A stretch of 64,000 nucleotides of DNA, taken from NCBI GenBank assembly GCA_021851715.1, contig JAJZCR010000002.1, positions 529-64,528 of the forward strand, in the 5' to 3' direction. Below the pieces are notes generated by a model. It was not told where the DNA came from. It saw only the letters and a list, made by a program, of their open reading frames with translations, and searched no databases. Position numbers and translations under genes: made by a program. Position 1 is the first letter of the stretch, and the number at the start of each line of letters is the position of its first letter. This document shows positions 25,188-29,970 of the stretch, piece by piece. The stretch comes from Planctomycetota bacterium (GTDB lineage: Bacteria > Planctomycetota > Phycisphaerae > WQYP01).

Positions 25188-25535
25188 TCACGGAGACAAG
25201 TCATCCGGATTACAAAAGCATCCCGGCAGTGACCGACGAATTGCAGTCAGCCAGTCTCGCCGCTTATCCGCGAATTCATCACTCAATTCCAAAGTGGCCG
25301 CCCATTCAGCATACCACATCGCTGCAACAAAATTAGTGTTCGCCGCAGATACGTCTTCCAGAACGGCGGTGCCGCTAACGGCCTGTCTGAGCACCTCCGC
25401 GGCCTTTTCCAAAATGTCGTTGCGAAATTCTCTGTCGTCTGCCAGTGGGTGTGGCCAAAAGCGGAGCATAAGTTCGGTCAGAAGCTCCGCCTCAAACAGC
25501 CCCGTCAAGGCCAAACTCTGTCGAGCGACGCTCAT
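25188..25535 (-). CDS. Hypothetical helical protein (115 aa), third gene of the MTase/GIY-YIG operon
   Basis: Its ATG overlaps the stop of the upstream GIY-YIG gene (ATGA at 25532-25535). I recognise no motif. Confidence 0.55.
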   Translation of the reverse strand: MSVARQSLALTGLFEAELLTELMLRFWPHPLADDREFRNDILEKAAEVLRQAVSGTAVLEDVSAANTNFVAAMWYAEWAATLELSDEFADKRRDWLTAIRRSLPGCFCNPDDLSP

Positions 25536-26380
25536 TTGGTGTACTCCTTGGCTTGCTTCCCCGCACGGTTATGTTCAGGGTGGCGCGATTTGATCAGTTC
25601 GGTTTCGTAGGCCCGGAGTTCACGGCTGGAAATTTCCAAAGGAAGGGCATGGAACGTCAGCCACGCAGGGCCACGATCTTGGCGGACGGCTATCATTTCA
25701 CGGAAGGACCATGTCTTAACATGATCATTGATTCGGTTGCGAAGGTTATCGGCCTTGCCGACGTAAAGAGTTTTGTTTTCAGCAAAAAAAATATACACCC
25801 CGGGGGCCTCCGGAATCTCTGCGGACATACTTTCCAGATCGTCCACGCGAATTATCCTGCTCTGCGTGGCTCGTAGGATCTGGCCCACCGGCTCGGGGCG
25901 AAGGTTCCTGGTTTTTCGAAGCGTCAAGGCTCGGAAGCGACACTCAAACGCCGGGGCACCGGGCTCCATAAATTGCACCAAAGCGTCAAACTGGCAACGC
26001 CGCTCCGGATTGCAAAGTATCCTGTCGACATTCACATCAAATTGCCGCTCCATTAGACGGGCGGCCTGCCCGACGCAGGTCGAGTATCGGTCGCCGCCAG
26101 GCCACCGCTTCTTGCGAACTTTGGTCGAGAGGCCGGCGAGCTTGTTGGCCTTCCGGAGATTTAGCAGCGTGGTGTTGCAATTTTCCTCAGAAAGCGAAGC
26201 ATTGACCTTGCGGCAGGTGGCAAGAAAAGTCTGATTCAAATCATCATCGCAAAGCACCTGCTCCGGGGAACGGCCTTGCCGGATTTCAATAAACGCTTGG
26301 AGGACGATGGCTTCGGTGGTCACGCGGCGGCCCCCGGAGTCGGCCATTTGAAATTCAGGTAATTTCCGAGAGGCTTCCAC
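25532..26380 (-). CDS. GIY-YIG nuclease-domain protein, paralogous to the C-terminal half of the adjacent methyltransferase
   Basis: The C-terminus reads GVYIFFAENKTLYVGKADNLRNRINDH ... AYETELIKSRHPEHN (GIY, YVG, R, E and N all present). The track start at 26380 is a GTG; ATG 26347 is an alternative. Either start overlaps the MTase 3' end. Confidence 0.75.
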   Translation of the reverse strand: MEASRKLPEFQMADSGGRRVTTEAIVLQAFIEIRQGRSPEQVLCDDDLNQTFLATCRKVNASLSEENCNTTLLNLRKANKLAGLSTKVRKKRWPGGDRYSTCVGQAARLMERQFDVNVDRILCNPERRCQFDALVQFMEPGAPAFECRFRALTLRKTRNLRPEPVGQILRATQSRIIRVDDLESMSAEIPEAPGVYIFFAENKTLYVGKADNLRNRINDHVKTWSFREMIAVRQDRGPAWLTFHALPLEISSRELRAYETELIKSRHPEHNRAGKQAKEYTK

Positions 26381-28020
26381 TTGTGGATTGAAACTCGCTG
26401 CGCCGCAATGCGTGCGATCCGATTATCTTTCGTTGCAAGAAAGCCTACTCGCAGATCCACCCGCAAGGTTTCCCAGAACTCAAAACGCGACGACCGGAAG
26501 AATTGGGCCTCCATCCGGTGCCGTAGATTTGAGGCTTCGCCAACATAAAGGTGCCGGCCAGTTCGGTCTTCCAGCCAGTACAGTCCCGGATCCGTCGGGA
26601 CGCGGCCAATTTCAAGATCAAAGGGATTTTCGTCCATTCTTGGCCTGGGGGGCAGGCGGTACGGCGACAAGAGTCGGTGCGTCTTCTGCGATTCTTTTCG
26701 GAATCGCAGGGCCATCCACCGAATCCACAGGCAGGGTAAATTCTCCGGGATCATCCCCTGTACGTATTCATCAAGCTCCTTTGCCCGGGCTGGATCACAG
26801 AGGATGGTGTCGAGCGACTGCTTTTTTTCAAATCTGGCCAGCGCAATTTCAAACGCAAACTTGTAATACTCATATTTTTGGCTGAGGGCCGCAGGCACCA
26901 CCGTTGGCTTGGATTCCGGCAACCCCGACTTGCGTTTGCGGATGTTGAGTAAACGCCGATTCCAATCCGCAATATCGCCCGGCAAGCCAAGCCGTCGGCA
27001 AACCACCCCGAATTCCACGTTCATCTGTGGGTCCACGACCACCCGATCAGCCGAAAAGCCATCCCTAACGGTAAAGAACGCCTCCAGCAAGCCGCGCTCG
27101 ATTTCGGACCGGCCTTGTCGTTGCGGCACCGATGCCGCCGCCTTGATGCGTTGGCCATTGATACGCATAGTTCCATTGGCTGTGGAGGGGGCGGAGGTGG
27201 CGGGAACATCGGATCCCAGCAGTGGCTCGCCGACGTTGGTTTGATCCAATCGTGTCTGAATTCTCTTGGCATAATCGGGGGACAACTCAAAGCCGATAAA
27301 TTGCCGACCAAGTTTTTTGGCCACCGCCAGCGTCGATCCGCTGCCGCCAAACGGGTCCAGCACCGTTTCGCCTTCATTGGAGGAGGCCCTGATAATGCGC
27401 CCCAGCAACTGTTCCGGCATCTGGCAGCCGTGCCAGCCGGCACGCTCCTTAAATGTTCCGCACACGCGTGGGAAATACCATATATCTTCATGCGGCTGGA
27501 AACAGTCCGGGATATCTTGCGGACGCAGGATCCAGGTATCGTCGGGCAGGCGACCATCCGGATTCCCCCGGCTGTCGCCGTAAACCAGGGTTCTAGCTGA
27601 AGGTACGCGGATGGCGGGTATATTGAAGGTGAAGCGCTTCGGATCTTTTACGAAATGAAACAGATGGGTATGGCTGCGGGCAAACTTGGTTTTGCACTGC
27701 ACGCCAAAGGTGTAGTACCAAAGCACCCAACTGCGGCACTTCAGGCCCAGTTCGCGCTGAAAAATCATCTTTAATTCCGCTGCGAAATCGTCGCCGATGG
27801 CCAGCCAAAAAGTCCCGTCCGCCTTGAGCGCCCGCACCACGCCGGCCCCCCAACGGCGGGTCCAATCCAGATAATCTTCGGCAGCACGCTTGTCTTCATA
27901 AACATCGTACTGATAACCGATGTTAAAAGGTGGATCCGCGAAGACCAGGTCAATACTGCCTTCGGGAACAGCCCCCAGGCCTTCAATACAGTCCTGTTGA
28001 TAAATCTGGTTTAATTTCAC
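26320..28020 (-). CDS. Beta-class N6/N4 DNA methyltransferase (PF01555-like) fused to a ~270-aa C-terminal module ending in a degenerate GIY-YIG domain
   Basis: The N-terminal half reads QQDCIEGL...DLVFADPPFNIGYQYD (motif IV) then VLDPFGGSGSTLAVA (motif I). The C-terminal half reads GLYWLEDRTGRHLYVGEASNLRHRM ... AAQRVSIHKWKPLGN. Confidence 0.85.
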   Translation of the reverse strand: MKLNQIYQQDCIEGLGAVPEGSIDLVFADPPFNIGYQYDVYEDKRAAEDYLDWTRRWGAGVVRALKADGTFWLAIGDDFAAELKMIFQRELGLKCRSWVLWYYTFGVQCKTKFARSHTHLFHFVKDPKRFTFNIPAIRVPSARTLVYGDSRGNPDGRLPDDTWILRPQDIPDCFQPHEDIWYFPRVCGTFKERAGWHGCQMPEQLLGRIIRASSNEGETVLDPFGGSGSTLAVAKKLGRQFIGFELSPDYAKRIQTRLDQTNVGEPLLGSDVPATSAPSTANGTMRINGQRIKAAASVPQRQGRSEIERGLLEAFFTVRDGFSADRVVVDPQMNVEFGVVCRRLGLPGDIADWNRRLLNIRKRKSGLPESKPTVVPAALSQKYEYYKFAFEIALARFEKKQSLDTILCDPARAKELDEYVQGMIPENLPCLWIRWMALRFRKESQKTHRLLSPYRLPPRPRMDENPFDLEIGRVPTDPGLYWLEDRTGRHLYVGEASNLRHRMEAQFFRSSRFEFWETLRVDLRVGFLATKDNRIARIAAQRVSIHKWKPLGNYLNFKWPTPGAAA

Positions 28021-28140
28021 CGGAACCTCGTCAAAATGGTACCTGGTCTTGCCAGCCTAAGTCAGATGCTTGAAATACCGCATATTGACCGAACATTACA
28101 CTAACAACACTAGATAGAGTACCCAAGGGCTTCGCCGTTT

Positions 28141-29619
28141 TCAAGCGGCCTGGGCCTGGTGCAATCGCGCGTTAAGGTTGGCAATGGCGTTACCCAGAGC
28201 CTCATGATGGGGTCCGTCTGCGGCTACCCAACGCAGCAGCCAGCCGGTGGTCAAGCGGGTTTCCACCCGTTGATTGGCGGCGACCGCTGTGGAATGATTG
28301 CGGTCGCCTAAAATCCGGCCGATCTCCGGAAAGCTCAGATGGGAATGCTGGCGCATCAGATAAATGGCAATGGCCCTGGCACCGGCCACCAACTGGCTGC
28401 GCCGATTGCCCCGCAGATCGGCGGCGGCTAACCCGAAATAGCCCGCCACGGTTTCAATGATGTGCTCCGCTGATATAACCTTCGCCGCTCCGGCGCGGCA
28501 GCGCACCTGTTCGGCGATGACGGTGGCGGTTCCTCCGACGGTCTCCCCGGCTTCCACAGCCACCTCCAGCCCCGTGAGCACCTGCAGCAAGAGGCCTTCG
28601 AGTTCGCGGACGCTGGCGGCGGGGCTTTGGGCTACGTGCATGAGAATCGCATCGCTGACGGAACGCCGCAGCCGCAGGGCGTGGCGCCGGACGATTTCCA
28701 GGCGCGTGGGCAGGTCGGGTGGATCAATACGTGCCACCATGCCGCTTACGAACCGGCTCTGCAGGGCGTCCATGATCGAGGCAATCTGCCCGGGAGCGCA
28801 GTCGGATGCCAGCACAATGCGCCGACCCGCACCATCCACCTGGTTGAAAGTGTGCAGGAATTCCTCCTGGGTGGCCTGCTTGCGCGTGAAGAAATGAATA
28901 TCATCAATCACCAGCAGGTCACTCTGGCGAAGCCGCCGACGAAACTGGGAGGTTTTGTTTTGGCGGATGGCCTCGACAAATTCATTGGTGAATTCTTCGC
29001 CGGTAAGGTAAAGCCAGCGCTTCTGCGGAAACTTCTGGCCAAAGCGCCGGCATATTCCCTGCAAGAGATGGGTTTTGCCCAGGCCGCAGCGCCCATGAAT
29101 AAAAAGCGGATTACAGGTGTTTTCAGTTGACTCAGCGGCTTGCACCGCCGCCCGGAAAGCCATCTGGTTGGACGGACCGGCCACAAACTCTTCCAGCAGA
29201 TACTTGGGATTCAGTCTGCTCACGCCGACCGGCGGGCTGGCGGCACTCGGCGGATGAGCCTGCGGCGGAGGCACAACTGCATCAACGGCCGGCTCAGATC
29301 GCGGCGTGCCGGCCGGAGTCGCCACTTCCACCGTCACCTGCTCACCCAGAACCACCGCGGCGCTGTGCCGCAATTCCAGCATCAATTTGCCGCGAATCCA
29401 CTGTGCTGCAAATGAGCTGGTGGCAGCCACGGTCAGCTTCTGGCCGTCCATATACCAGCGGCACTTTCCGGCAAACCATTGCTGATAGCGGGGCTCACCC
29501 AGGCGTTGGGCCAGTTCATCCTCAATTTTAATCTGCACAGTTTTTTCAAGTTCCAATTCCTTCATTTCCGGCGCAGCGGGCAACATCAACAGACTCCTTT
29601 CCGGGCACCATTTCCCCAT
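28141..29619 (-). CDS. dnaA: Chromosomal replication initiator protein DnaA
   Basis: Walker A is GRCGLGKTHLLQ and Walker B is LLVIDDIHF. The C-terminal DNA-binding helix region reads FPEIGRILGDRNHSTAV. The true start may be M19 (nt 29565, MKELELEK...). Confidence 0.95.
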   Translation of the reverse strand: MGKWCPERSLLMLPAAPEMKELELEKTVQIKIEDELAQRLGEPRYQQWFAGKCRWYMDGQKLTVAATSSFAAQWIRGKLMLELRHSAAVVLGEQVTVEVATPAGTPRSEPAVDAVVPPPQAHPPSAASPPVGVSRLNPKYLLEEFVAGPSNQMAFRAAVQAAESTENTCNPLFIHGRCGLGKTHLLQGICRRFGQKFPQKRWLYLTGEEFTNEFVEAIRQNKTSQFRRRLRQSDLLVIDDIHFFTRKQATQEEFLHTFNQVDGAGRRIVLASDCAPGQIASIMDALQSRFVSGMVARIDPPDLPTRLEIVRRHALRLRRSVSDAILMHVAQSPAASVRELEGLLLQVLTGLEVAVEAGETVGGTATVIAEQVRCRAGAAKVISAEHIIETVAGYFGLAAADLRGNRRSQLVAGARAIAIYLMRQHSHLSFPEIGRILGDRNHSTAVAANQRVETRLTTGWLLRWVAADGPHHEALGNAIANLNARLHQAQAA

Positions 29620-29900: not shown

Positions 29901-29970
29901 ATAAAAAAAAATATTTTTTTAACCGATTTTCCACCTCCGTTTACGGCTTTGTGGATAAATCTGTGGATGA
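29901..29970. other. Candidate oriC core: AT-run (possible DUE) plus a DnaA-box cluster
   Basis: A 22-nt A/T run lies at 29901-29922 (ataaaaaaaaatatttttttaa). It is followed by TTTTCCACC (29927-29935, 2 mismatches), a perfect DnaA box TGTGGATAA (29950-29958) and TGTGGATGA (29962-29970, 1 mismatch), ~300-350 nt upstream of dnaA. Confidence 0.45.

What the first reader, a model, noticed from the sequence alone, without database searches (positions are those of the whole stretch)
25188..28020. DNA methyltransferase fused to a degenerate GIY-YIG module, followed by a stand-alone paralogue with intact GIY-YIG motifs, directly downstream of dnaA
**Seen in the sequence.**
- The 566-aa protein has a beta-class MTase in its first ~290 aa (DPPFN then FGGSGS).
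- Its last ~270 aa align by eye, block for block, with the whole 282-aa product of the next gene. The pairs are LEAFFTVRDGFSADRVVVDPQMN / LQAFIEIRQGRSPEQVLCDDDLN; SLDTILCDPARAKELDEYVQGM / NVDRILCNPERRCQFDALVQFM; and GLYWLEDRTGRHLYVGEASNLRHRM / GVYIFFAENKTLYVGKADNLRNRI.
- In the stand-alone copy the downstream E..LI....P..N block is intact (YETELIKSRHPEHN). In the fusion the equivalent Glu position reads Gln (AAQRVSIHKWKPLGN).
- The genes overlap (28-61 nt, then ATGA) and are followed by a 115-aa helical protein.
- The operon starts 120 nt after the dnaA stop, on the same strand.

**Established knowledge.** GIY-YIG is a nuclease fold used by some type II restriction enzymes (e.g. Eco29kI, Hpy188I). 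The conserved Glu is catalytic.

**Inference.** This may be an R-M-like system in which methylase and nuclease share a duplicated ~170-aa targeting or interaction module, with the copy on the methylase catalytically disabled. Alternatively it is an orphan, ori-proximal regulatory methylase with a repair-type nuclease.
Basis: partly seen in the sequence, partly recalled or inferred. Interest (0 to 1): 0.75.

Follow-up and report, generated by a model that had tools for sequence, protein, structure and literature searches.

The report
Methylase with dead nuclease twin cassette
A three-gene cassette found only in Planctomycetota encodes a DNA methylase fused to a catalytically dead copy of the nuclease made by the next gene, plus a small acidic protein of unknown fold. 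It looks like an undescribed variant of a restriction-modification system, and its position beside dnaA in this genome is a coincidence.

Summary
On the minus strand, 26320-28020 encodes a beta-class DNA amino-methyltransferase. Its C-terminal ~260 aa is a paralogue of the next gene's product, 25532-26323/26347 (BLASTP E=2e-16; profile-profile 100%, E=5.5e-63).

The shared module has two parts. The first is a previously undescribed, basic, all-helical domain that is itself an internal duplication. The second is a UvrC/Cho-like GIY-YIG domain.

The metal-binding Glu is kept in about 31 intact stand-alone copies. It is replaced in all 36 fused copies aligned, mostly by Gln.

A third gene (25188-25535) encodes an acidic helical protein with no sequence or fold relative. 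It is the anchor of the cassette. In 36 of 39 informative related loci (37 of 40 with the window) the order is fusion, nuclease, small protein, at fixed spacing. Three loci lack only the nuclease.

All 39 genome-collection loci are from Planctomycetota. The genomic neighbourhoods differ and none contains dnaA.

The same module, always without the Glu, is also fused to gamma-class methylases elsewhere.

Best reading: a restriction-modification-like cassette in which the nuclease is coupled to, or restrained by, its dead paralogue on the methylase. This function is inferred, not shown.

The parts
26320..28020 (-). Gene 1: 566-aa fusion of a beta-class DNA amino-methyltransferase with a catalytically dead paralogue of gene 2. 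GTG start.
   Evidence: ORF. Pfam PF01555, E=1.1e-48. PADLOC MTase_II, E=1.3e-58. Homologues of 564-587 aa occupy the same position in L001, L002, L003 and L009.
27235..28020 (-). Methyltransferase domain (aa 1-262). DPPF lies at nt 27925-27936 and FGGSGS at nt 27334-27351.
   Evidence: The closest solved relatives are m6A enzymes: M.BceJIV (8urk), M.MboIIA, CcrM and M.RsrI. Mean column conservation is 0.77-0.93 over aa 61-240 in 36 homologues, and DPPF is present in 34 of 36.
27112..27234 (-). Linker (aa 263-303). It is poorly conserved except for a short 'SAP.T' motif.
26689..27102 (-). Fused copy of the basic helical tandem-repeat domain (aa 307-444).
   Evidence: pI 9.5.
26359..26613 (-). 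Fused GIY-YIG-like pseudo-nuclease domain (aa ~470-554). Y481, Y492, R502 and N553 are kept. The catalytic Glu is replaced by Q541 (nt 26398-26400).
   Evidence: Searches give weak GIY-YIG/UvrC matches to the first half only.
25532..26347 (-). Gene 2: stand-alone paralogue, an active-looking GIY-YIG nuclease. It is 271 aa from the ATG at 26347 and more probably 263 aa from the GTG at 26323 (GTGA overlap with the stop of gene 1). The longest ORF starts at 26380.
   Evidence: Pfam GIY-YIG, E=1.4e-6. Cho/UvrC models, E=3e-10 to 1e-7. AF2 pLDDT 89; the C-terminal domain superposes on UvrC 1ycz with TM 0.75. Y177, Y187, R197, E240 and N252 are intact.
25901..26314 (-). Stand-alone copy of the basic helical tandem-repeat domain. 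It consists of two ~65-aa four-helix units, each ending in L.LRK.
   Evidence: AF2 helices H11-66 and H85-145. Internal repeat by hhalign: 97.4% probability, E=1e-11. No Pfam hit and no PDB sequence hit; whole-model fold searches matched only the GIY-YIG part. pI 9.6.
25188..25535 (-). Gene 3: 115-aa acidic all-helical protein with an invariant PxCF motif near the C-terminus. Its start overlaps the stop of gene 2 (ATGA).
   Evidence: 120 database clusters. Invariant residues: E15, E17, W27, P30, W95, P104, C106, F107. AF2 pLDDT 94.4. No fold or sequence relative in PDB. pI 4.5.
28021..28140 (-). 120-nt spacer between the dnaA stop and gene 1. It presumably holds the cassette promoter. Nothing was recognised in it.

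Best explanation
This is a self-contained, Planctomycetota-specific three-gene cassette that works like a restriction-modification or addiction module.

Gene 1 methylates host DNA. It is probably an N6-adenine methylase, and because the methylase domain is so conserved it probably has one fixed target across the family.

Gene 2 is the effector. It is a UvrC/Cho-type GIY-YIG nuclease with a basic helical tandem-repeat domain.

The methylase carries a full-length copy of that nuclease whose metal-binding Glu has been lost. This is a DNA-binding or partner-binding pseudo-nuclease.

The most likely role of the dead copy is to pair with the active nuclease, as the inactive partners do in XPF-ERCC1 or Mus81-Eme1. 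Alternatively it occupies the same DNA sites. Either way, cleavage and methylation would be physically coupled and the nuclease would be restrained where the methylase is present.

Gene 3 is acidic and is retained even where the nuclease is lost. It most likely binds the basic modules as a regulator or immunity-like partner.

What is shown: the anatomy, the paralogy, the pattern of catalytic residues, conservation of the cassette as a unit, and the absence of any link to dnaA.

What is inferred: methylation protects DNA from cleavage, the paralogous modules form a hetero-complex, and gene 3 has the role proposed.
For: (1) Intact methylase. The catalytic motifs are present and the domain is very conserved.

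(2) Catalytic residues. The stand-alone paralogue keeps Y, Y, R, E and N in about 31 intact copies. All 36 fused copies aligned lack the Glu: Q in most, otherwise K, R, T or F.

(3) One ancient duplication. Fused and stand-alone modules form two separate clades with mirrored topologies, so the pair has co-evolved since a single duplication.

(4) Asymmetric loss. 36 of 39 informative loci, plus the window, have fusion, nuclease and small protein at fixed spacing. Three have lost only the nuclease and none has lost only the methylase. This asymmetry is typical of restriction-modification systems.

(5) Nuclease without a methylase. The one relative group that has an intact Glu and was confirmed to lack a neighbouring methylase carries signal-peptide-like N-termini, meaning it is probably exported. 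That fits a nuclease that is dangerous inside an unprotected cell. Other Glu-bearing forms (RHH-type and other N-terminal domains) were not checked for context.

(6) Recurrence. The same module, always without the Glu, is fused to other beta-class and to gamma-class (Eco57I-type) methylases. One of these lies in an SNF2/ResIII defence-like locus.

(7) Distribution. The cassette is sporadic (39 GTDB species, all Planctomycetota) and its neighbourhoods are unrelated.

(8) Charge. The module domains are basic (pI 9.1-9.9) and the small protein is acidic (pI 4.4-4.8).

(9) Coupling. The 4-nt overlaps suggest translational coupling.
Against: - There is no biochemical or methylome evidence, and no recognition motif was identified. 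Palindrome depletion was not diagnostic.
- The GIY-YIG domain is closest to the repair enzymes UvrC and Cho, not to known GIY-YIG restriction enzymes. Hpy188I gives only a weak fold match, E about 1.
- The methylase, including its presumed target-recognition region, is far more conserved than in typical fast-diversifying restriction-modification systems. The cassette tree also partly follows taxonomy. Both points hint at a more housekeeping-like role.
- Most neighbourhoods are ordinary metabolic genes rather than defence islands.
- Formation of a hetero-complex could not be modelled here.
- No known defence-system model matches beyond the generic domains.
Confidence: 0.5

Rival explanations
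1. Parallel targeting without a complex. The duplicated module is a DNA-recognition device. The copy on the methylase and the copy on the nuclease independently bind the same sites, so both enzymes are aimed at one target. The fused GIY-YIG lost catalysis only to avoid self-cleavage.
For: - Both N-domains are basic and share conserved positions.
- The dead domain keeps the Tyr, Arg and Asn residues expected to contact DNA.
- The module is fused to three different methylase classes, as a portable DNA-binding module would be.
Against: - The two copies are only about 27-32% identical, so shared specificity is not assured.
- Beta-class methylases already carry their own recognition region, and here it is highly conserved.
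- The helical domain has no recognisable HTH or winged-helix match.
- This rival is not exclusive of the main model.
Confidence: 0.22
2. A methyl-directed DNA repair or nicking system, analogous to Dam/MutH or a Vsr-type patch repair linked to a methylase. The nuclease nicks one strand near methylated or hemimethylated sites for repair. It is not a defence against foreign DNA.
For: - The GIY-YIG domain is most similar to the nucleotide-excision-repair nucleases UvrC and Cho, which make single-strand incisions.
- Strong conservation of the methylase and partial congruence with taxonomy resemble housekeeping methylases.
- Neighbours are often housekeeping genes.
Against: - The distribution is sporadic: 39 species hits across a phylum.
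- Genomic positions vary.
- The UvrB-binding, EndoV and HhH domains of UvrC and the Cho C-terminal domain are absent.
- No MutS, MutL or other repair gene is linked.
- The nuclease is lost in 3 loci while the methylase and gene 3 persist.
- The module also occurs in an SNF2/ResIII defence-like locus.
Confidence: 0.12
3. A toxin-antitoxin-like or abortive-infection module. The nuclease is a toxin held in check by the acidic small protein, by the pseudo-nuclease on the methylase, or by both, and is released on infection or stress. Methylation is secondary or regulatory.
For: - An acidic ~115-aa helical protein next to a basic nuclease resembles immunity and inhibitor pairs.
- The genes appear translationally coupled.
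- A dead paralogue could titrate the active one.
Against: - The small protein is kept where the nuclease has been lost, so it is not merely an antitoxin for the nuclease.
- The methylase catalytic motifs are under strong constraint.
- It matches no known TA or Abi model.
Confidence: 0.12
4. An origin-proximal orphan regulatory methylase, like CcrM or Dam, tied to dnaA and replication control, with an incidental nuclease neighbour.
For: In the window the cassette starts 120 nt after dnaA on the same strand. DnaA boxes lie at 29950-29970. The closest solved relatives include the orphan regulators M.BceJIV and CcrM.
Against: - None of the 39 GTDB loci contains dnaA by tblastn, and no DnaA domain is listed among the called genes of the five metagenome loci.
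- The window's flanks match no other locus.
- The nuclease and small protein are fixed partners, not incidental neighbours.
Confidence: 0.03

Closest known systems
Type II restriction-modification systems with GIY-YIG endonucleases (Eco29kI, Cfr42I, Hpy188I, R.DraR1)
   Same: An operon of a DNA methyltransferase and a GIY-YIG nuclease with all catalytic residues. The nuclease can be lost while the methylase stays.
   Different: - The nuclease is of UvrC/Cho type and is not detectably related to these enzymes beyond the fold.
- It carries a novel helical tandem-repeat domain.
- The methylase carries a dead paralogue of the nuclease.
- There is an obligatory third gene.
- The methylase does not diversify across the family.
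Active/inactive nuclease paralogue pairs (XPF-ERCC1, Mus81-Eme1) and heterodimeric restriction enzymes (BbvCI, BspD6I large and small subunits)
   Same: A catalytically competent nuclease co-evolves with a paralogue that keeps the fold but has lost a catalytic residue.
   Different: The nuclease fold is different (GIY-YIG rather than PD-(D/E)XK/ERCC4). Here the dead partner is covalently tethered to a methyltransferase. Heterodimerisation is not shown.
Type IIG/IIC and Type III systems, where methylase and nuclease act in one polypeptide or complex
   Same: If the paralogues pair, methylation and cleavage would reside in one complex that uses the methylase for targeting.
   Different: There is no helicase or ATPase, the nuclease fused to the methylase is dead, and the active one is a separate subunit. 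The engineered Eco29kI R-M fusion (PMC3039593) has an active nuclease.
Slx1-like GIY-YIG nucleases fused to or adjacent to COG4123 N-methyltransferases (Dunin-Horkawicz et al. 2006, PMC1564403)
   Same: A recurrent GIY-YIG and methyltransferase association, proposed there to be restriction-modification-like.
   Different: Different GIY-YIG clade (Slx1 versus UvrC/Cho), different methylase family and different taxa. That work describes no dead copy, no paralogue pair and no third gene.
UvrC / Cho excision-repair nucleases
   Same: They give the best sequence and structure match for the GIY-YIG domain: E=3e-10 to Cho and TM 0.75 to 1ycz.
   Different: The match covers only ~90 aa and scores are far below the family cut-offs (39.8 against 367 bits). 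No UvrB-binding, EndoV/RNase H-like, HhH or Cho C-terminal domain is present.

Membership tests
Beta-class DNA amino-methyltransferases (Pfam PF01555 N6_N4_Mtase) | Match above the Pfam gathering score | tested here: met
   166.6 bits against a cut-off of 26.7, aa 23-254.
Beta-class DNA amino-methyltransferases (Pfam PF01555 N6_N4_Mtase) | Motif IV (D/S)PP(Y/F) lies N-terminal to AdoMet motif I FxGxG | tested here: met
   DPPF at aa 29 and FGGSGS at aa 224. DPPF or DPPY is present in 36 of 36 homologues.
Beta-class DNA amino-methyltransferases (Pfam PF01555 N6_N4_Mtase) | Target base (N6-A or N4-C) and recognition sequence | not testable with these tools
   The nearest solved relatives are m6A enzymes. 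All equivalog models score below their cut-offs.
GIY-YIG nuclease superfamily: stand-alone gene 2 | GIY-YIG fold | tested here: met
   Pfam 29.0 bits against a cut-off of 22.6. The AF2 model superposes on UvrC 1ycz with TM 0.75 and probability 1.00.
GIY-YIG nuclease superfamily: stand-alone gene 2 | Catalytic Tyr, Tyr, Arg, Glu and Asn | tested here: met
   Y177, Y187, R197, E240 and N252. They are conserved in about 31 orthologues.
GIY-YIG nuclease superfamily: module fused to the methylase | Catalytic Glu (metal ligand) | tested here: not met
   Q541 in the window. No Glu at this column in any of the 36 fused copies aligned, nor in further beta- and gamma-methylase fusions. Pfam GIY-YIG scores 16.1 bits, below the 22.6 cut-off.
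Type II restriction-modification system | Adjacent, co-oriented methyltransferase and endonuclease genes, both apparently functional | tested here: met
Type II restriction-modification system | The endonuclease cleaves a defined sequence and cleavage is blocked by the cognate methylation | not testable with these tools
   This needs biochemistry or a methylome. Motif-avoidance analysis was uninformative.
Type II restriction-modification system | The nuclease depends on the methylase: it is not found without it, while orphan methylases occur | tested here: met
   36 loci have both, 3 have the methylase only and 0 have the nuclease only. The one methylase-less group with intact Glu whose context was checked has signal-peptide-like N-termini.
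Type II restriction-modification system | Homology of the nuclease to a characterised restriction enzyme | tested here: not met
   The best matches are UvrC and Cho. Hpy188I reaches only Foldseek E about 1.
UvrC / Cho excinucleases | Full-length match with the UvrB-binding, EndoV-like and HhH domains, or the Cho C-terminal domain | tested here: not met
   Scores of 31-40 bits against cut-offs of 285-367, restricted to ~90 aa of GIY-YIG.
Controller (C-protein)-regulated restriction-modification system | The small third gene encodes an HTH transcription factor | tested here: not met
   No HTH or any other Pfam, NCBIfam or PADLOC match. The helical-bundle model has no PDB neighbour.
Origin-linked cell-cycle methylase (CcrM/Dam-like) | Conserved linkage to dnaA/oriC, or near-universal presence in the clade | tested here: not met
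   dnaA is absent from the 39 GTDB loci by tblastn and from the called genes of the five metagenome loci. Only 39 species hits were found. CcrM equivalog: 108.5 bits against a cut-off of 830.
Known anti-phage defence systems (PADLOC-DB v2) | Match of the nuclease or small protein to a system-specific model over most of its length | tested here: not met
   Only ~35-aa GIY motif matches to PDC-S14 and UzuA (E=5e-6 to 5e-4). The small protein has no hit.

The most novel reading that the evidence does not exclude
This could be a previously undescribed architecture of restriction-modification. In it the effector nuclease is recruited and kept in check by a pseudo-nuclease paralogue tethered to the methylase, forming an XPF-ERCC1-style active/dead heteromer, with a new acidic helical protein as a third subunit. 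The underlying module is a new helical tandem-repeat domain plus a UvrC-like GIY-YIG domain. It has at least 742 clusters at 50% identity and would be a general, unrecognised accessory of DNA methylases of several classes.
Probability: 0.35. Interest if true: 0.8.

Novelty: new variant of a known kind. Interest (0 to 1): 0.62.

Why it matters
Restriction-modification systems must aim a nuclease and a methylase at the same DNA. Known solutions are independent recognition (Type II), a shared specificity subunit (Types I and III), or one polypeptide (Type IIG).

A methylase that carries a dead copy of its partner nuclease would be a fourth solution. It would also be a bacterial example of regulation by a pseudo-enzyme paralogue.

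The work further defines two uncharacterised protein families:
- A basic helical tandem-repeat domain, with 742 or more representative clusters.
- A confidently folded acidic protein with no structural neighbour.

Finally, it points to a native barrier to DNA transfer in Planctomycetota, a phylum that is hard to manipulate genetically.

Tried and rejected
- **Palindrome and motif avoidance, to guess the target.** CAGCTG is the most depleted 6-mer palindrome in the window (1 observed against 13.4 expected) and in the cassette loci (56 against 134). It is equally depleted in the nuclease-less loci (3 against 13.7) and in non-cassette contigs (1 against 6.4). It is therefore not attributable to the cassette.
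- **dnaA/origin linkage.** No dnaA was found in any related locus. DnaA boxes occur only upstream of dnaA itself.
- **Promoter and terminator scan of 24.5-30.2 kb.** Nothing above chance.
- **Rfam and tRNA scans of the window.** Nothing found.
- **Fold searches.** The small protein has no PDB match (best E=1.3). The helical N-domain was only searched as part of the whole stand-alone model, and nothing beyond the GIY-YIG part matched in PDB or BFVD. Profile searches against PDB sequences were empty.
- **Phage and plasmid collections.** Only generic Cho/UvrC-like GIY-YIG matches over the last ~100 aa. The N-domain is absent.
- **PADLOC, PHROGs and NCBIfam.** They place the methylase only generically. 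The nuclease's hits to PDC-S14 and UzuA are ~35-aa motif matches.
- **Literature searches.** No description of a methylase fused to a dead GIY-YIG with an active paralogue was found. The nearest is the Slx1-like/COG4123 association in PMC1564403.
- **The word-indexed search with the fused module.** It did not return the orthologous fusions themselves. They were recovered from the loci instead.
- **Apparently stand-alone ~290-390-aa proteins with Gln at the Glu position.** Many turned out to be N-terminally truncated methylase fusions: motif I or the linker lies at their N-terminus. They were not counted as a separate architecture.

Full report
**1. The observation**

The minus strand carries four genes in series:
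- dnaA, 28141-29619.
- A 566-aa ORF, 26320-28020.
- A 282-aa ORF, 25532-26380.
- A 115-aa ORF, 25188-25535.

An unrelated UPF0047 gene follows. dnaA is a true equivalog (TIGR00362, 366.7 bits against a cut-off of 343.9).

The 566-aa protein matches PF01555 over aa 23-254 (E=1.1e-48). DPPF (aa 29) lies ahead of FGGSGS (aa 224), which is the beta-class motif order. Its nearest solved relatives are N6-adenine methylases: M.BceJIV (8urk, identified through), M.MboIIA, CcrM and M.RsrI.

Its C-terminal part aligns with the next gene's product:
- BLASTP gives 32% identity, E=2e-16.
- Profiles built from 35 fused and about 40 stand-alone modules give 100% probability, E=5.5e-63, over 241 columns.

So the paralogy covers the whole ~260-aa module, not only ~170 aa.

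The second gene junction is ATGA. At the first junction, a GTG at 26323 forms GTGA with the fusion's stop. That start gives a 263-aa product, matching the 258-266-aa homologues that also show 4-nt overlaps.

**2. Anatomy of the shared module**

AlphaFold2 models the stand-alone protein with pLDDT 89 and pTM 0.82. The model has eight helices in two groups of four, followed by a beta-rich domain. That domain superposes on the GIY-YIG domain of T. maritima UvrC (TM 0.75, probability 1.00).

By sequence, the C-terminal domain is closest to Cho and UvrC (E=3e-10 to 1e-7). The scores are far below those families' cut-offs and cover only the ~90-aa domain.

The helical part:
- Is an internal duplication of a ~65-aa unit with the signature S.D.V..DP....F...(N/R)..L.LRK (hhalign 97.4%, E=1e-11).
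- Is basic, with pI 9.1-9.9.
- Has no Pfam match and no PDB sequence match. In the whole-model fold searches nothing beyond the GIY-YIG part matched.

**3. The catalytic residues**

The alignment to UvrC places the stand-alone E240 on catalytic E76 and N252 on N88. Y177, Y187 and R197 complete the set.

In the fusion the equivalent positions are Y481, Y492, R502, Q541 and N553.

An alignment across related loci shows this is a rule:
- About 31 intact stand-alone copies all have Glu.
- None of the 36 fused copies aligned has Glu. Most have Gln; the rest have Lys, Arg, Thr or Phe.
- One fused sub-clade has also lost the Arg.

hhalign pairs the consensus 'a~Qs~lI~k~~P~~Ny' with 'A~EtELIrSR~P~fN'.

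From established GIY-YIG enzymology (I-TevI E75, UvrC E76), this Glu holds the single catalytic metal. The fused domain is therefore best regarded as a pseudo-nuclease that may still bind DNA. This last step is an inference.

**4. The third gene**

The 115-aa protein has 120 database clusters and a strongly conserved sequence. Invariant residues are E15, E17, W27, P30, W95, P104, C106 and F107, and there is a C-terminal PSCFC motif.

It is predicted with pLDDT 94.4 as a helical bundle. No PDB fold neighbour exists (best E=1.3), there is no PDB sequence neighbour, and no family match was found. It is acidic, with pI about 4.4-4.8.

**5. Comparative genomics**

Contigs that encode homologues of the stand-alone nuclease show the same three genes in the same order, in unrelated neighbourhoods.

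A scan of one genome per GTDB species with the small-protein profile gave 39 loci. All are Planctomycetota MAGs, from Phycisphaerae, Gemmataceae, Planctomycetaceae, Pirellulaceae, Schlesneria and Gimesia.

tblastn and HMM mapping gave these counts:
- 36 of 39 loci with enough upstream sequence have two helical domains, at about 1,540-1,610 and 765-840 nt before the small gene. These are the fusion followed by the stand-alone copy.
- Three loci (L023, L024, L040) have the fusion and the small gene but no nuclease.
- No locus has the nuclease without the methylase.
- Five loci are cut by contig ends.

A few MAG copies carry frameshifts.

No dnaA occurs in the 39 GTDB loci by tblastn, and no DnaA domain is listed among the called genes of the five metagenome loci. 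Flanks are shared only between near-identical genomes, and the window's flanks match none. The dnaA adjacency is therefore particular to this genome.

A neighbour-joining tree puts all fused modules in one clade and all stand-alone modules in another, with mirrored sub-clades. This indicates one ancient duplication followed by co-evolution as a unit.

The methylase domain is unusually conserved. Mean column conservation is 0.77-0.93 over aa 61-240, which includes the region between motifs IV and I. The module averages 0.3-0.6.

**6. The wider family**

An exhaustive profile search with the helical domain found 742 representative clusters at E<=1e-3 and 582 at E<=1e-10.

The architectures include:
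- Stand-alone nucleases.
- Beta-class methylase fusions.
- Gamma-class (Eco57I-type) methylase fusions of 867-1070 aa.
- A module followed by an MmeI/N6_Mtase-like domain.
- RHH (HicB-like)-module proteins.
- An ankyrin/PQQ fusion.

Every methylase-fused module lacks the Glu. Many shorter 'Q-type' proteins are truncated beta-methylase fusions.

One gamma-class fusion lies in a locus with an SNF2 helicase, two further methylases and a ResIII helicase. RHH-module proteins lie beside a D12-class methylase, or amid Type I restriction-modification debris and transposases. None of these loci has a second paralogue or the small protein. The fusion-plus-paralogue-plus-small-protein arrangement is therefore specific to the Planctomycetota cassette.

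A clade with an intact Glu and no neighbouring methylase carries signal-peptide-like N-termini.

**7. Interpretation**

The evidence fits a restriction-modification-like cassette:
- An intact, constrained methylase.
- An intact nuclease that is not seen in the cytoplasm-type form without the methylase.
- Asymmetric loss: the nuclease can go, the methylase stays.
- Sporadic distribution and variable location.
- Recurrence of the module on methylases in defence-like loci.

The distinctive feature is the dead paralogue on the methylase. I consider pairing of the dead and live modules the most likely role. Pairing would couple or restrain cleavage where the methylase sits, by analogy with XPF-ERCC1 or Mus81-Eme1 and with heterodimeric restriction enzymes. 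The acidic small protein would bind the basic modules.

The alternatives are independent parallel DNA targeting by the two copies, a methyl-directed repair or nicking function, and a toxin-antitoxin-like arrangement.

Several points count against a classical restriction-modification reading:
- The nuclease domain is UvrC/Cho-like.
- The methylase is very highly conserved.
- The cassette phylogeny is partly congruent with taxonomy.
- Most neighbours are housekeeping genes.

No recognition motif could be inferred. CAGCTG depletion is general to these contigs and does not track the cassette.

**8. Novelty**

Searches of the held literature found no description of this arrangement. The closest is the Slx1-like GIY-YIG/COG4123 methyltransferase association noted by Dunin-Horkawicz et al. 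(PMC1564403), which involves different clades and has no dead paralogue.

PADLOC models match only generic domains.

I rate it a new variant of a known kind: a restriction-modification-like methylase-nuclease operon. It has two uncharacterised protein families and a clear, testable mechanistic question.

Noticed in passing
L006 1847-2782; L008 450-1415; proteins P0016-P0021, P0191, P0196, P0223, P0224, P0261, P0296: A sister clade has the same helical domain and a fully intact GIY-YIG, but carries an N-terminal signal-peptide-like hydrophobic segment and has no adjacent methylase. It may be an exported nuclease.
   Followed up: partly
L052 6001-8619 (P0228): An 872-aa Eco57I-type (gamma-class) methylase is fused to the Glu-less module. 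It sits in a locus with an SNF2 helicase, an N6_Mtase/MmeI-like protein, a second Eco57I-type methylase, a CBS protein and a ResIII helicase. This looks like an uncharacterised multi-gene defence system.
   Followed up: partly
L010 7675-9820; L012 5687-8579: RHH (HicB-like)-module proteins of ~375 aa have a degenerate GIY-YIG (second Tyr to Phe, Gly to Ser, Glu kept). Each is preceded by a conserved ~100-aa ORF. In L012 it is followed by a D12-class methylase and a 189-aa protein with a similar 'LRK' helix. In L010 it lies amid Type I restriction-modification fragments and transposases.
   Followed up: partly
Proteins P0202, P0204, P0217, P0254, P0267, P0231, P0248, P0277, P0293, P0299: A further architecture of ~360-385 aa has an acidic unknown N-terminal region followed by the module. 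In it both the catalytic Arg and the Glu are replaced.
   Followed up: no
L023 6771-7418: In one of the three nuclease-less cassettes, an HNH-like ORF (motif ...DRIRPASKGG...CSKHN...) lies directly upstream of the methylase fusion. It may be a replacement nuclease or may be coincidental.
   Followed up: no
L003 9367-9999 (also L004, L005); L002 12043-13095: A RE_EcoO109I-like gene lies 225 nt downstream of the cassette in one lineage. In another, an AbiEi_2 gene lies ~3 kb downstream. These are occasional defence-gene neighbours.
   Followed up: no
window, whole 64 kb; L013-L051: CAGCTG is strongly under-represented (1 observed against 13.4 expected in the window, and observed below expected in 28 of 28 loci). 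CTAG, CTCGAG and GAGCTC are also under-represented. The same holds in contigs without the nuclease, so it is not tied to this cassette.
   Followed up: yes
window 29950-29970: Two closely spaced DnaA boxes, one perfect TTATCCACA and one with a single mismatch, lie ~330 nt upstream of dnaA. This is likely the dnaA promoter or oriC region.
   Followed up: partly
window 27112-27234 (fusion aa 263-303): The otherwise variable linker between the methylase and the module contains a short motif ('SAP.T', preceded by G[DE]PL.G) that is conserved in at least 80% of homologues. Its role is unknown.
   Followed up: no
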